This document shows, piece after piece, positions 2,460-3,790 of a DNA stretch of 64,000 nt. The notes under the pieces were generated by a model. It saw only the letters and a list, made by a program, of their open reading frames with translations, was not told the DNA's origin and searched no databases. A program made the position numbers and the translations under genes. Position 1 is the first letter of the stretch. Each line of letters begins with the position of its first letter. The DNA comes from a virus. Taxonomy: Duplodnaviria; Heunggongvirae; Uroviricota; Caudoviricetes. The stretch lies in IMG/VR virus record IMGVR_UViG_3300029705_000018; one strand, given 5' to 3'.

Positions 2460-3745
2460 TAAAATCTCCTTTTCTTTTAGCTTCTACTATATTTCAAAAC
2501 TAAATCATATAAATTATCTAACGCCGGCCACGGTGTCTGCCGAAATATAAATGCCTTGTTCAGTATATGTCTGACCTCAACTTGAACGACCTACCGGTGT
2601 AGACTTGTCCCGGGTAAAATCTACATCGCTCAGACACTTCCCGACGCATTGTGAAAACAGTCGCTGTGCAGGCACGAGCAACCTGGAGGCTCAACACGTC
2701 ACGCGAGGACTTTCGCTTTAGCCTTGTTCAATCTCCTTGGGCATGGAGGGTGGTGGAGCGAGAAAAATAATGAACTCGCTGATTGTCGCCTTTACGGGGG
2801 CTAGGCGACATTTCTTTCGCCCCTGGTGGGAAACCTTGGACTCAAACCAAGAAGTCTTTTCAGACGCCGGATTTACAGTAATCATAGAAACATATTGCGG
2901 ATAAGGTCTTTGCCAACACCTTTTTCAAATGAAAAGCCTTTCGGCTCCGGTGCGTTTATCAATTCCGCCAGTTTCCCAAATTTATAAACCTGATAAGTTT
3001 GCTGACCTTCGTCATACTCCCTATAACCTTCAACCATATTCAATCACCGGGGAGACAAGTCTGAGCCTTCGGGAGCGACCCTAAGCTTCTTGCCCCAGTA
3101 GTTCTGACACACCAGAGGCGGCCTTTCCTACCCTATCCCGCAGAGGACTGATTGCCTCTAACTTTCACTCGCCATTCAGAATTGTTTAAGTCTATTAAAC
3201 CATACTATCTAAACAGCCCAATCTTTCTTCTCGTCGTTGCGATAGAGCTACTCGTACCCTGACCTTACCTTATAGCCGGATTACTCCGACATCAACGCAG
3301 ACTTCCTTATTGGTGTACCTTGGTCTGGAACAGTCACCAGCTAATCCCTAACAAGGCTTATTCCCCACGGGGGCGTCTATTGCGGAAGCGATAAGACGGT
3401 ATTTTTGATTGCGGTTATCTTTGCACTCCTCTCCATCCAGGCCCTCCCTTTGGAGGCGGCTCTCTTATGTCACCACAAGAGAATCTACCTATTACCGGCT
3501 ATCGTCGGTAAGATTGCTTTTCGGACTCCTGGTACCCACAGGCAGGATGAGGATCTCGGCACGATGGTATTCGTTCTTCACCGAGTTGCAAACTTATCAA
3601 GGTTCATGACAGTCATTAGTCGAAATCGCACTCACCAGGGTTATTCACCGGAGGGTTTCTGTCAGGAGTGCTTCAAGGCTCACTTTTTTCTCATACAGTT
3701 GGAGCGAGTTGCAGTCGCAAATTTTATGAATAAGAATTGCTGTTT
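2460..3745 (-). ncRNA. candidate large structured ncRNA (ORF-free, GC-rich; could instead be a long leader for the gene at 2086..2457)
   Basis: About 1.25 kb with no credible ORF in any frame. It is markedly more GC-rich than the surrounding AT-rich phage DNA. On the minus strand it lies directly downstream of a copy of the conserved early promoter (rev-comp TTGACTTTTCAAAAAAAATTTGTTATAAT at ~3745-3790). It has many GNRA-type hairpins (e.g. GAGCCGAAAGGCTT, GGGGCGAAAGAAATGTCGCC...CCCC). An embedded tRNA-like 3' element ends CTTGG-TTTGAGT-CCAAG-GTTTCCC-A-CCA at ~2812-2970. Confidence 0.45.
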
Positions 3746-3790
3746 GAGCCTTATATTTATATTATAACAAATTTTTTTTGAAAAGTCAAA
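3745..3790 (-). promoter_or_regulatory. conserved early promoter element (one of >=17 copies)
   Basis: On the minus strand reads TTGACTTTTCAAAAAAAATTTGTTATAATATAAATATAAGG. It matches the family TTGATTTT(T/C)A(T/A)AAAAAATATGTTATAATAT(A/T)TATGTAAG(A/G)TAAAG. Confidence 0.6.

What the first reader, a model, noticed from the sequence alone, without database searches (positions are those of the whole stretch)
2460..3790. A 1.25-kb GC-rich, ORF-free, promoter-driven segment inside the tRNA array is a candidate large structured ncRNA
The segment lies on the minus strand directly downstream of a copy of the conserved early promoter (3745-3790). It has no plausible ORF in any frame, in standard code or with TAG read as sense. 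Its GC content is strikingly higher than the surrounding AT-rich phage DNA. It is full of GNRA-capped hairpins (GAGCCGAAAGGCTT, GGGGCGAAAGAAATGTCGCCTAGCCCCCGTAAAGGCGACA). It contains an internal tRNA-like 3' domain ending ...CTTGG-TTTGAGT-CCAAG-GTTTCCC-A-CCA at ~2812, whose possible 5' partner GGGAAAC sits ~160 nt upstream at ~2965. Large ornate ncRNAs of the GOLLD/ROOL type are known to sit in phages next to tRNA clusters. A self-splicing intron or a long structured leader of the 123-aa gene at 2086..2457 are alternatives.
Basis: partly seen in the sequence, partly recalled or inferred. Interest (0 to 1): 0.8.

Follow-up and report, generated by a model that had tools for sequence, protein, structure and literature searches.

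The report
ROOL nanocage RNA in phage tRNA array
About half of the flagged segment is a new copy of ROOL, a known large phage RNA that assembles into hollow eight-unit cages; next to it sit an interrupted tRNA-like gene and an uncharacterised structured leader of a homing-endonuclease gene.

Summary
The segment has no credible ORF, lies behind a near-consensus promoter, and is modestly GC-richer than its surroundings. It is not one 1.25-kb RNA but a row of separate modules on the minus strand.

1. A sigma-70-type promoter at 3789-3761, one of nine copies in the array.
2. A full-length ROOL RNA at 3609-2984 (Rfam RF03087, 323 bits against a 99-bit cut-off, E 1e-73).
3. Six bases later, a tRNA-Leu-derived cloverleaf at 2977-2824 carrying a 67-nt insert at the anticodon arm. 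Its acceptor stem and elbow pair covary in relatives, but its anticodon does not hold.
4. A lineage-specific GC-rich spacer at 2823-2732.
5. A 277-nt structured element at 2731-2455 with no Rfam family, found in only four related phages. Its last hairpin buries the ribosome-binding site and start codon of a PD-(D/E)XK homing-endonuclease gene (2457-2086).

ROOL itself is a known family, so this is a new member of a known kind. The tight, conserved ROOL-to-tRNA-like junction and the unnamed leader RNA are the only parts that go beyond the expected.

The parts
3761..3789 (-). Sigma-70-type promoter: -35 TTGACT (3789-3784), 17-nt spacer, TG-extended -10 TATAAT (3766-3761).
   Evidence: 11 of 12 matches. 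family D2: nine copies of the 56-nt promoter repeat, all on the minus strand of the tRNA array. The same promoter-to-ROOL spacing (about 180 nt) is seen in L016.
3737..3752 (-). Leader motif AAGGCTCAAACAGCAA, starting 9 nt after the -10 box. This is the probable 5' end of the primary transcript.
   Evidence: 8 matches to AAGGCNNANACAGCAA (up to 2 mismatches), all on the minus strand inside the array, against 1.7 expected. Calling it a transcript start is inference from the spacing.
3610..3680 (-). Conserved 5' flank of ROOL with a hairpin. The closing stem is CACTC/GAGTG here and CAACC/GGTTG in relatives. It is a clade-specific extension.
   Evidence: conserved in window, L016 and L017, with 3 compensatory pairs. 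The sample is small.
2984..3609 (-). ROOL RNA (Rfam RF03087), full length, 626 nt.
   Evidence: 323.2 bits, gathering score 99.1, E 1e-73, model positions 1-574 of 574; 74 of 84 consensus pairs show compensatory changes among 16 ROOLs including this one. MFE z = -3.17.
2978..2983 (-). 6-nt linker AAATTT between the end of the ROOL match and position +1 of the tRNA-like element. This is the inferred RNase P cleavage site.
   Evidence: The linker is 6-8 nt in window, L015/L017 and L016. Cleavage itself is inferred, not shown.
2824..2977 (-). tRNA-Leu-derived tRNA-like gene with encoded ACCA. It has a 7-bp acceptor stem, a Leu-type D-arm, an anticodon stem CCGGA/TCCGG, a long variable arm and a T-arm. 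It is interrupted by a 67-nt insert.
   Evidence: ARAGORN in intron mode calls tRNA-Tyr(gta) i(33,67). Standard ARAGORN and Rfam tRNA do not call it. (D14): 83% identical to the 5' half of the phage's own tRNA-Leu(TAG); all cloverleaf stems are kept apart from one U-U cell at the loop-proximal variable-arm pair in L016, L017 and L053 (93 of 96 cells paired in 4 homologs), and 5 of 7 acceptor pairs carry compensatory changes. G19-to-A together with C56-to-U in the window copy.
2879..2945 (-). 67-nt insert between the 5' strand of the anticodon stem and the anticodon-loop remnant CTGTAAA. It contains a GAAA-capped hairpin.
   Evidence: Homologous inserts of 51-53 nt occur at the same site in L016, L017 and L053. 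Inserts of 41 nt occur at the same site in unrelated tRNA-Leu(UAA) genes in L057, L059 and L060.
2732..2823 (-). Lineage-specific GC-rich spacer (54% GC). It has overlapping stems GGGGC/GCCCC and TGTCGCC/GGCGACA (a possible H-type pseudoknot) and the hairpin GCGAG..CTCGC.
   Evidence: sequence; relatives carry a different, shorter spacer here, so there is no comparative support.
2492..2731 (-). Core of an unnamed structured RNA ('module 3'): a closing helix and a multi-helix junction, with no Rfam family.
   Evidence: 65 pairs, 97.7% of cells paired, 12 pairs with changes on both sides against 4.2 +/- 1.6 in shuffles (0 of 500) and 0-1 in slid controls; present only in window, L016, L017 and L053; no Rfam match at E up to 10; nothing in 185,579 bacterial and archaeal genomes.
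2455..2491 (-). 12-pair hairpin that sequesters the Shine-Dalgarno sequence (AAGGAG, in the loop) and the ATG of the endonuclease gene. Its 5' arm overlaps a -10-like TATAGT (2491-2486).
   Evidence: helix 10: 12 pairs, 100% paired in 4 sequences; promoter-like TTTATA-16-TATAGT at 2513..2486, 9 of 12 matches; this 3' part is also conserved in L018-L020, where the -10-like box reads TATAAT. The regulatory role is inferred.
2086..2457 (-). 123-aa PD-(D/E)XK endonuclease (Pfam PDDEXK_5), a free-standing homing-endonuclease-type gene.
   Evidence: PF11645, E 4e-16, 59.7 bits against a cut-off of 26.1; phrog_5018; 38 relatives in viral contigs, with tRNA genes detected in all but one of the 31 non-redundant loci examined. 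Nine of those 31 lie 42-55 nt upstream of tRNA-Tyr(GTA).
1950..2039 (-). Intact tRNA-Tyr(GTA), 46 nt downstream of the endonuclease stop codon. It closes the cassette.
   Evidence: The same order is seen in L016, L017 and L053.

Best explanation
The segment is the promoter-proximal part of an RNA operon inside the tRNA array of a large phage that recodes TAG. A strong promoter (3789-3761) drives a roughly 145-nt leader and then a full-length ROOL RNA (3609-2984).

By homology with ROOLs solved by cryo-EM, this RNA folds into a flat multi-junction monomer, and eight copies assemble into a hollow cage about 28 nm across. Its cellular role is still unknown.

Six bases after ROOL comes a tRNA-Leu-derived cloverleaf (2977-2824) with a 67-nt insert at the anticodon arm. 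Its tRNA body is under selection but its anticodon is not. I infer that it serves as a processing handle. RNase P cutting at its 5' end would set the ROOL 3' end, as ordinary tRNAs 13-19 nt downstream of ROOL could do in other phages.

Downstream lie a lineage-specific spacer and a 277-nt structured RNA (2731-2455). The terminal hairpin of that RNA hides the ribosome-binding site and ATG of a free-standing PD-(D/E)XK homing-endonuclease gene. I infer that read-through transcripts are untranslatable. A start from the -10-like box inside the 5' arm of the hairpin would free the site, which is the logic known for T4 I-TevI.

Shown here: ROOL identity, the promoter consensus, the tRNA-like fold and its covariation, the covariation of the leader RNA, and the endonuclease family.

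Inferred: cage assembly for this copy, RNase P processing, and translational control.
For: ROOL:
- Rfam RF03087 match at 323.2 bits against a 99.1 cut-off, covering model positions 1-574.
- 74 of 84 consensus pairs covary across 16 ROOLs that include this one.
- MFE z = -3.17.
- Phage context with 31 tRNAs called by ARAGORN.
- The literature describes ROOL in phages near tRNA islands as an octameric nanocage (PMC5737381, PMC12286853).

Promoter: with conserved spacing in L016.

tRNA-like element:
- ARAGORN in intron mode calls it.
- It is homologous to the phage's own tRNA-Leu genes.
- 93 of 96 cloverleaf cells are paired in 4 homologs; the only unpaired cell is U-U at the loop-proximal variable-arm pair in L016, L017 and L053.
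- The acceptor stems read GGGAAAC/GTTTCCC, GAG(T)GGAC/GTCCCTC, GAGCCGT/GCGGCTC and GAGCCGT/ACGGCTC.
- The window copy carries a G19:C56 to A19:U56 double change.
- The anticodon-loop remnants differ: CTGTAAA, CAGTAAA and CTTAAAA.
- The same phage has an intact tRNA-Leu(UAA) and an intact tRNA-Tyr(GTA) elsewhere.

ROOL-to-tRNA spacing: 20 nt or less in 6 of 20 ROOL loci and 120 nt or less in 10 of 20. Where no tRNA follows, as in L009, L013 and L002, a terminator hairpin does.

Leader RNA.

Hairpin over the SD and ATG, and the overlapping -10-like box.

Endonuclease. T4 SegB is the precedent for a homing endonuclease inside a phage tRNA cluster (PMC2330249).

The identical sequence was recovered from at least three independent metagenomes.
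Against: - There are no expression data. Transcript ends, RNase P cleavage, cage formation and regulation of the endonuclease are all untested.
- Only four homologs carry the tRNA-like element and the leader RNA, so covariation rests on few independent events.
- In half of the ROOL loci examined no tRNA lies within 120 nt, so a tRNA is not a general requirement for ROOL 3' end formation.
- tRNA-Leu(UAA) genes with an insert at the same site occur without any ROOL nearby. The element could therefore simply be an intron-bearing tRNA gene that happens to be next in the array.
- The promoter-like site for the endonuclease is weak (9 of 12 matches).
- The core of the leader RNA (2731-2492) has no explained role.
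Confidence: 0.88

Rival explanations
1. The whole 1.25-kb stretch is one new ornate ncRNA, larger than ROOL, in which the tRNA-like element and the downstream helices are internal domains.
For: No terminator-like site is predicted on the minus strand between the promoter and the endonuclease gene. All modules are co-linear and conserved together in window, L016 and L017, and the part of L053 that is held (which starts inside ROOL) is co-linear too. Co-transcription is therefore likely.
Against: The modules have separate distributions. ROOL occurs in 20 loci without the others. The interrupted tRNA-Leu occurs without ROOL. The 3' part of the leader travels with the endonuclease alone in L018-L020. 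The spacer at 2823-2732 is replaced in relatives. ROOL closes on itself with a 15-bp P1 helix. Excess stability is confined to ROOL.
Confidence: 0.03
2. The tRNA-like element is a working, intron-containing tRNA gene of the 'enigmatic phage tRNA intron' kind. Its place next to ROOL is only array packing, and it has no role in ROOL biology.
For: tRNA-Leu(UAA) genes with a 41-nt insert at exactly the same 31/32 site and a canonical CUUAAAA loop occur in three other phages with no ROOL nearby. L017 and L053 keep the Leu anticodon UAA. Lak megaphages are reported to carry tRNAs with unexplained introns, including one in tRNA-Tyr(GTA) (PMC6784885). The window copy has a well-formed CUGUAAA loop.
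Against: Among four orthologs the anticodon reads GUA, GUA with A33, UAA and UAA, so decoding identity is not conserved. The phage already has an intact tRNA-Leu(UAA) and an intact tRNA-Tyr(GTA). No known bacterial or phage machinery removes a 41-67-nt insert at position 31/32. No group I signal was found. The 6-8-nt junction with ROOL is kept in all three homologs that include the junction.
Confidence: 0.3
3. The 2731-2492 core is a self-processing ribozyme or an independent small RNA that releases the endonuclease mRNA from the non-coding precursor. This would be analogous to the lariat-capping ribozyme upstream of intron-borne endonuclease genes. It would not be a passive leader.
For: The core is a closed multi-helix junction with covarying stems and long invariant unpaired stretches. 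It is better conserved than the adjacent ORF. It sits exactly between non-coding RNAs and the first protein gene.
Against: No match at E up to 10 to any Rfam family other than one chance snoRNA-type hit at the edge of the region, and none to a ribozyme family, GIR1, hammerhead, twister, pistol, hatchet and HDV-like included. It occurs in only four sequences. No cleavage-site signature was recognised.
Confidence: 0.12
4. The segment is, or contains, a self-splicing group I or II intron carrying the endonuclease gene.
For: The PDDEXK_5 family includes the intron-encoded I-Ssp6803I. In L034 and L035 a homolog sits inside a tRNA-Tyr gene. Rfam does find group I introns elsewhere in related contigs (L005 and L008).
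Against: No group I or II hit at E up to 10 in window 1800-4400 or in L034 2800-3600. The flanking tRNA-like element and tRNA-Tyr are each complete, so no gene is split here. The joined halves from L034 are degenerate and are not called as a tRNA.
Confidence: 0.02
5. The segment encodes a protein that is hidden by frameshifts or an alternative genetic code.
For: The phage lineage recodes TAG. A suppressor tRNA(CTA) lies just outside the window, and TAG sits at Gln positions in the L034 endonuclease.
Against: No stop-to-stop frame of 200 aa or more exists under the standard or TAG-sense codes. No Pfam or PHROG hit was found for the tested ORFs. The substitution pattern is compensatory in stems, not codon-like.
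Confidence: 0.01

Closest known systems
ROOL RNA (Rfam RF03087; Weinberg et al. 2017, PMC5737381; cryo-EM by Kretsch et al. 2025, PMC12286853; Ling et al. 2025 as summarised in PMC12515178)
   Same: Full-length match to the covariance model. The same helices, supported by covariation. A variable internal linker. A phage genome, embedded in a tRNA island. A length of 626 nt against a family mean of 581 nt.
   Different: It carries a clade-specific conserved 5' hairpin of about 70 nt. It is joined by only 6 nt to an interrupted tRNA-like gene. It has no close DNA relative among 50,697 GenBank phage records. Cage formation is untested for this copy.
GOLLD RNA (ornate phage RNA; tRNAs sometimes lie inside its linker)
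   Same: A large phage RNA near tRNA islands that forms a cage. A physical link between the ornate RNA and a tRNA-type element is known for GOLLD (PMC12286853).
   Different: No GOLLD model match. Here the tRNA-like element is appended at the 3' end, outside the fold, rather than placed in the internal linker.
Engineered ROOL 3' fusions (Ling et al. 2025, via PMC12515178)
   Same: Cargo RNAs, including a suppressor tRNA precursor, fused to the ROOL 3' end still allow octamer assembly and are displayed radially. The natural arrangement here has the same topology.
   Different: Those constructs are synthetic. Whether the natural junction stays intact or is cut by RNase P is unknown.
'Enigmatic' introns in megaphage tRNA genes (Lak phages, PMC6784885)
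   Same: Short unexplained inserts in the anticodon region of tRNA genes of large TAG-recoding phages, including a tRNA-Tyr(GTA) case.
   Different: This phage is 42% GC, not the 26% of Lak phages. The insert lies at position 31/32, and its 3' end repeats the exon's CGGA in relatives, so a local anticodon stem-loop can form. The anticodon drifts among orthologs.
Free-standing phage homing endonucleases: T4 SegB in the tRNA cluster (PMC2330249), and T4 I-TevI with its occluded ribosome-binding site (the latter from my own knowledge of the T4 literature)
   Same: An endonuclease gene lodged between tRNA genes. A hairpin covers the SD and AUG, with a promoter-like -10 box inside the 5' arm.
   Different: The enzyme is of the PD-(D/E)XK type (PDDEXK_5, the family of I-Ssp6803I), not GIY-YIG. 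A covarying structured RNA of about 240 nt precedes the hairpin. Neither its cleavage target nor its regulation has been tested.
MALAT1/mascRNA-type 3' end formation (eukaryotic; from my own knowledge)
   Same: A tRNA-like structure directly downstream of a long ncRNA is cut by RNase P, which creates the mature 3' end of the long RNA.
   Different: A different domain of life with no homology. It is offered only as a working analogy for the inferred step.

Membership tests
ROOL RNA (RF03087) | Covariance-model score at or above the curated gathering score (99.1 bits) over the whole model. | tested here: met
   323.2 bits, E 1.3e-73, model positions 1-574 of 574, not truncated.
ROOL RNA (RF03087) | The family's helices are kept through compensatory substitutions relative to other members. 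| tested here: met
   16 ROOLs including the window give 84 consensus pairs, 74 of them with changes on both sides. The window's P1 pairs ACCTTGATAAGTTTGC with GCAAACTTATCAGGT.
ROOL RNA (RF03087) | Highly conserved sequence blocks (AAUAGAC, UUCUGAAUG..GUGAAAG, GCUCAGAC, GAAUA, GCGAAGG). | tested here: met
   All are present in the window row of alignment A10 and marked conserved.
ROOL RNA (RF03087) | About 580 nt long, with a poorly conserved internal linker. | tested here: met
   626 nt. The linker region aligns as low-identity sequence with insertions (alignment, model positions about 350-410).
ROOL RNA (RF03087) | Located in a phage or prophage, often beside tRNA genes. | tested here: met
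   31 tRNAs called by ARAGORN on the same strand, 30 of them within 12.5 kb. Identical or related loci lie on IMG/VR viral contigs.
ROOL RNA (RF03087) | Self-assembly into a homo-octameric nanocage. | not testable with these tools
   Needs mass photometry or cryo-EM of the transcript.
ROOL RNA (RF03087) | Expressed as an abundant, discrete RNA. | not testable with these tools
   No transcriptome data are available here.
tRNA (RF00005 / ARAGORN), for 2977-2824 | Cloverleaf with a 7-bp acceptor stem, D, anticodon and T stems, and a discriminator base plus CCA. | tested here: met
   23 of 24 pairs are standard in all four homologs; the loop-proximal variable-arm pair is U-U in L016, L017 and L053 (93 of 96 cells). 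The acceptor stem covaries, and ACCA is encoded.
tRNA (RF00005 / ARAGORN), for 2977-2824 | A continuous anticodon stem with a 7-nt loop, callable by the standard models. | tested here: not met
   A 67-nt insert separates the stem from the loop. Standard ARAGORN does not call it, nor does Rfam tRNA at E up to 10. Only ARAGORN's intron mode calls it.
tRNA (RF00005 / ARAGORN), for 2977-2824 | The anticodon, and so the decoding identity, is conserved among orthologs, with U33 present. | tested here: not met
   CUGUAAA (window), CAGUAAA (L016, with A33) and CUUAAAA (L017, L053).
tRNA (RF00005 / ARAGORN), for 2977-2824 | An elbow tertiary pair between G19 and C56. | tested here: met
   Relatives have GG in the D-loop and TTC in the T-loop. 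The window has GA and TTT, that is A19:U56, which is a compensatory double change.
Group I intron (RF00028) | A catalytic core recognisable by the covariance model, interrupting a host gene. | tested here: not met
   No hit at E up to 10 in window 1800-4400. The flanking tRNA-like element and tRNA-Tyr are complete. The model does detect introns in L005 and L008, so it works in this kind of sequence.
GOLLD, HEARO, OLE, tmRNA, RNase P RNA | A match to the respective Rfam model, or ARAGORN tmRNA mode. | tested here: not met
   None was reported at the gathering threshold for the whole window, or at E up to 10 for 1800-4400. ARAGORN -m found nothing.
PD-(D/E)XK homing endonuclease, Pfam PDDEXK_5 (PF11645), for 2457-2086 | A profile match above the curated cut-off. 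| tested here: met
   59.7 bits against 26.1, E 4e-16, profile positions 4-122 of 138. The direct sequence match to the solved member 2OST is only E 0.28.
PD-(D/E)XK homing endonuclease, Pfam PDDEXK_5 (PF11645), for 2457-2086 | Site-specific DNA cleavage and homing. | not testable with these tools
   Only the context is suggestive. Nine of 31 non-redundant homologs lie 42-55 nt upstream of tRNA-Tyr(GTA), and one lineage has the gene inside a tRNA-Tyr gene.

The most novel reading that the evidence does not exclude
In this phage clade ROOL is made and used as a covalent ROOL-tRNA-like chimera. The 6-nt junction is not cut, so each octameric cage displays eight interrupted tRNA-Leu-like domains on its outside. 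Engineered 3' cargos are displayed in the same way. These domains would tether the cage to tRNA-binding machinery such as RNase P, the CCA-adding enzyme, a synthetase, EF-Tu or the ribosome. That would give the first functional handle on what ROOL cages do. The evidence does not exclude this. The junction length is conserved, the tRNA fold (acceptor stem, elbow pair, CCA) is under selection while the anticodon drifts, and intact Leu(UAA) and Tyr(GTA) tRNAs exist elsewhere in the genome.
Probability: 0.12. Interest if true: 0.75.

Novelty: new member of a known kind. Interest (0 to 1): 0.35.

Why it matters
ROOL is one of the few natural RNAs known to build a closed cage without protein, and nobody knows what the cage is for. 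This copy adds little on its own, because more than a thousand ROOLs are catalogued and phage tRNA islands are their usual home.

Its value lies in the context:
- It gives a clean, promoter-defined transcription unit in a large TAG-recoding phage.
- ROOL is fused at 6 nt to a tRNA-shaped RNA that is selected for shape and not for decoding.
- That suggests a testable route for ROOL 3' end formation by RNase P.
- Alternatively, it may be a natural version of the tRNA-cargo fusions that have so far been made only by engineering.

The region also yields two unnamed structured RNAs with covariation support. One gates a homing-endonuclease gene. It adds cases to the unexplained short inserts in tRNA genes of large phages as well.

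Tried and rejected
- BLASTN of 2400-4100 against 50,697 GenBank phage records found no match, so no annotated relative could be used.
- An exact-pattern scan for ATGCGTCGGGAAGTGTCT returned L052. This was a chance hit inside a protein gene and was discarded.
- The metagenome scan with a degenerate leader pattern gave only one new homolog, L053.
- The scan of bacterial and archaeal genomes for the leader RNA found nothing.
- nhmmer and a purpose-built covariance model (R1) found the leader RNA only in the four known loci, plus partial matches in L018-L020.
- Group I intron hypothesis: Rfam at E up to 10 was negative for the window and for the L034 insert. ARAGORN with long introns, and on the joined L034 halves, found nothing. 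I also compared by eye with the Tetrahymena R and S elements and found only loose resemblance. Rejected.
- tmRNA reading of the tRNA-like element: ARAGORN -m was negative.
- The idea that the tRNA insert is a decayed copy of the promoter cassette: local alignment against shuffles was significant only for L016 (2 of 300) and not for the window (212 of 300). Not supported beyond a shared AACAGCAAT-type motif.
- Alternative genetic codes: none opens a long frame in the segment under TAG-sense. The frames that open under TGA-sense or TAA-sense are no more than expected window-wide.
- PDB sequence search for the endonuclease: only marginal hits, with 2OST at E 0.28 and spurious picornavirus VP2 matches.
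- I suspected that window 22-48 kb was anomalous because it has few long ORFs. It is consistent with many small genes and was not pursued.
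Full report
**What is there.** The window begins with a dense minus-strand tRNA array: ARAGORN tRNAs between 1033 and 13605. The flagged segment, 2460-3790, lies inside this array. Read on the minus strand, it has no credible ORF. The longest is a 120-aa TTG-start frame antisense to the RNA. 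No stop-to-stop frame of 200 aa or more exists under the standard code or with TAG read as sense. None of six ORFs tested matches Pfam, and none of the three tested matches PHROGs. The GC content is 45.8%, against 42.3% for the window, 43.2% for the array and 35.5% for the adjacent protein gene. The 'strikingly GC-rich' claim therefore holds only against that neighbouring gene.

**Promoter.** TTGACT-17 nt-TATAAT with a TG extension lies at 3789..3761 (-) and scores 11 of 12. It is one of nine copies of a 56-nt repeat, all on the minus strand of the array (family D2). Nine bases after the -10 box begins AAGGCTCAAACAGCAA. That motif occurs eight times in the window, all on the minus strand inside the array, against 1.7 expected. 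I take it to mark the transcript's 5' end, which is inference.

**Core identity.** A scan of the whole window against Rfam 15 gives a full-length ROOL match (RF03087) at 2984-3609 (-). The score is 323.2 bits against a gathering score of 99.1, E 1.3e-73, covering model positions 1-574 of 574. A permissive scan of 1800-4400 repeats this result. It adds nothing else within 2460-3790 except two chance-level hits at its edges (PyrG leader, E 6.8; a snoRNA family, E 1.3); outside it are the flanking tRNAs. The outer helix closes on itself, ACCTTGATAAGTTTGC pairing with GCAAACTTATCAGGT. I aligned this ROOL with 15 others recovered from viral contigs. Of 84 consensus pairs, 74 show changes on both sides, and the family's invariant blocks are all present. 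Its minimum free energy is 3.2 sd below dinucleotide shuffles. The flanks 2460-2990 and 3790-4095 give z of about 0.

ROOL was described in 2017 as an RNA of about 581 nt found in phages, prophages and near tRNAs (PMC5737381). In 2025 it was shown to assemble into a hollow homo-octameric cage of unknown function (PMC12286853). Cargo RNAs fused to its 3' end, including a suppressor-tRNA precursor, are tolerated and displayed radially (Ling et al., as summarised in PMC12515178).

**Relatives.** GenBank phages hold no similar DNA. IMG/VR and JGI contigs hold the identical sequence from several samples (L001/L014, L054, L055). Three diverged homologs of the whole cassette also exist:
- L016 (the same locus as L007).
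- L017 (the same locus as L015, L056 and L058).
- The metagenome contig L053.

About 70 nt upstream of ROOL P1 is also conserved and forms a hairpin whose closing stem changes from CACTC/GAGTG to CAACC/GGTTG. In L016 two small ORFs with their own promoter sit upstream. ROOL nevertheless keeps a private promoter at the same distance of about 180 nt.

**The tRNA-like element.** Six bases after the ROOL match, 2977-2824 folds as a cloverleaf. Its parts are:
- acceptor stem GGGAAAC/GTTTCCC;
- a Leu-type D-arm, TGGCGGAATTGATAAACGC;
- anticodon stem CCGGA/TCCGG;
- a GAAA-capped long variable arm;
- T-arm CTTGG-TTTGAGT-CCAAG;
- an encoded ACCA.

A 67-nt insert separates the 5' strand of the anticodon stem from the loop remnant CTGTAAA. 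Standard tRNA finders miss the element. ARAGORN's intron mode calls it tRNA-Tyr(gta) with a 67-nt intron. Its 5' half is 83% identical to the phage's own tRNA-Leu(TAG) (family D14), so it derives from a tRNA-Leu.

In the four homologs 93 of 96 cloverleaf cells are paired. The only unpaired cell is a U-U at the loop-proximal pair of the variable arm in L016, L017 and L053. Five of seven acceptor pairs carry compensatory changes. The window copy alone has G19-to-A in the D-loop together with C56-to-U in the T-loop, which restores the elbow pair as A:U. By contrast, the anticodon-loop remnant reads CUGUAAA, CAGUAAA (with A33) and CUUAAAA (twice). The same phage has an intact tRNA-Leu(UAA) just beyond window position 1, and an intact tRNA-Tyr(GTA). 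The tRNA shape is therefore selected, but the decoding identity is not.

**ROOL-to-tRNA spacing.** In 20 ROOL loci, a tRNA or tRNA-like gene starts within 20 nt of the ROOL 3' end in six and within 120 nt in ten. Loci without one, such as L009, L013 and L002, show a terminator hairpin there instead. My preferred reading is that the element is an RNase P substrate that sets the ROOL 3' end. This is inferred, and the eukaryotic MALAT1/mascRNA case is a working analogy from my own knowledge.

A serious rival is that it is simply an intron-bearing tRNA gene. tRNA-Leu(UAA) genes with a 41-nt insert at the same site, next to a second interrupted tRNA, occur in three other phages without ROOL. Lak megaphages are reported to have 'enigmatic' tRNA introns (PMC6784885). 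In relatives the insert's 3' end repeats the exon's CGGA, so a local anticodon stem-loop can form and the insert becomes an extra arm.

**Downstream modules.** Positions 2823-2732 are a 54%-GC spacer peculiar to this phage. Relatives have a different, shorter spacer.

From 2731 to 2455 runs a 277-nt element that is better conserved than the ORF that follows it. Its consensus fold has 65 pairs, and 97.7% of cells are paired. Twelve pairs show changes on both sides, against 4.2 +/- 1.6 in column shuffles (0 of 500) and 0-1 in slid controls. It has no Rfam family. By nhmmer and by a covariance model built here, it is found only in the four related loci, with its last 88 nt or so also present in L018-L020. 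It was not found in bacterial or archaeal genomes.

Its terminal 12-pair hairpin (2491-2455) holds the Shine-Dalgarno sequence in the loop and the ATG in the stem. The 5' arm contains a -10-like TATAGT, which reads TATAAT in L018-L020. I infer regulation of the T4 I-TevI type: read-through RNA is untranslatable, while RNA started inside the arm is translatable.

**The gene it gates.** The gated gene (2457-2086) is a 123-aa PD-(D/E)XK endonuclease of Pfam PDDEXK_5 (E 4e-16). It has 38 relatives in viral contigs. tRNA genes were detected in all but one of the 31 non-redundant loci examined. The gene most often lies 42-55 nt upstream of tRNA-Tyr(GTA) (9 of 31 non-redundant loci). In L034 and L035 the gene, with in-frame TAG at Gln positions, lies inside a degenerate tRNA-Tyr and shows no group I signal. 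This fits a free-standing homing endonuclease, like T4 SegB in the T4 tRNA cluster (PMC2330249).

**Verdict.** It is a new member of a known family in that family's typical setting, so on its own it is ordinary. The segment is a chain of modules rather than one 1.25-kb RNA. Three things go beyond the expected:
- the conserved 6-8-nt ROOL-to-tRNA-like junction;
- the drifting anticodon on a selected tRNA body;
- two unnamed covarying RNAs, at 2731-2455 and, outside the finding, at 3787-4096.

None of the functional steps (cage assembly of this copy, RNase P processing, endonuclease gating) could be tested here.

Noticed in passing
window 3787-4096 (-): Another ORF-free conserved structured RNA of about 310 nt lies directly after tRNA-Gln(CTG) and before the ROOL promoter. 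Homologs occur in L016, L017, L034 and L035, in L035 again right after tRNA-Gln(CTG). Eleven pairs show compensatory changes among three sequences. It has no Rfam family.
   Followed up: partly
window 1164-9293 (-), eight sites (for example 3737-3752, 4448-4463, 5763-5778, 6502-6517): The motif AAGGCNNANACAGCAA occurs 8 times, all on the minus strand inside the tRNA array, against 1.7 expected. Three copies sit 9 nt after a -10 box and the others lie in tRNA spacers. Related AACAGCAAT / ACTGCAACTC strings occur in the tRNA inserts of relatives and in the ROOL leader. It may be a transcript start or a processing signal.
   Followed up: partly
L057 6980-7230; L060 (reverse strand) 11793-12037; L059: Other phages carry two adjacent interrupted tRNA genes. 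One is a tRNA-Leu(UAA) with a 41-nt insert at the same 31/32 site as in the window element. The neighbour has a 44-48-nt insert. No ROOL lies nearby. The insert ends in CGGA, which repeats the exon, so a local anticodon stem-loop can form.
   Followed up: partly
L034 2937-3468 (also L035): A PDDEXK_5 endonuclease gene with in-frame TAG codons at Gln positions sits in a 444-nt insert inside a tRNA-Tyr(GTA)-like gene. The joined halves are degenerate and are not called as a tRNA. No group I intron signal was found.
   Followed up: partly
L001 4386-4460 (same phage, just beyond window position 1): A tRNA with anticodon CTA (an amber suppressor, labelled Pyl by ARAGORN) lies in the continuation of the array, along with an intact tRNA-Leu(UAA), a Ser(TGA) and two Lys tRNAs. 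This points to TAG recoding in this phage.
   Followed up: no
window 10489-10524 (-); 11868-11937 (-); 11953-12021 (-): Rfam reports a DUF3800-XI RNA match (47.6 bits against a 37.8 cut-off) between two tRNA-Glu genes. It also reports two weak tRNA matches that ARAGORN did not list.
   Followed up: no
L016 and L017/L058 (contig IMGVR_UViG_3300032167_000002, 402 kb): This contig holds two copies of the cassette, from the upstream tRNA-Gln genes and structured RNA through ROOL, the tRNA-like element, the leader and the endonuclease to tRNA-Tyr, Thr and Ser. The copies are about 204 kb apart and 84% identical over the roughly 1.7 kb from ROOL to tRNA-Tyr. This is either a real duplication or a chimeric join of two related genomes of about 200 kb.
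   Followed up: no
window 225-803 (-) and 7781-8662 (-): Protein genes inside the tRNA array include a papain-family cysteine protease homolog and a family-2 glycosyltransferase.
   Followed up: no
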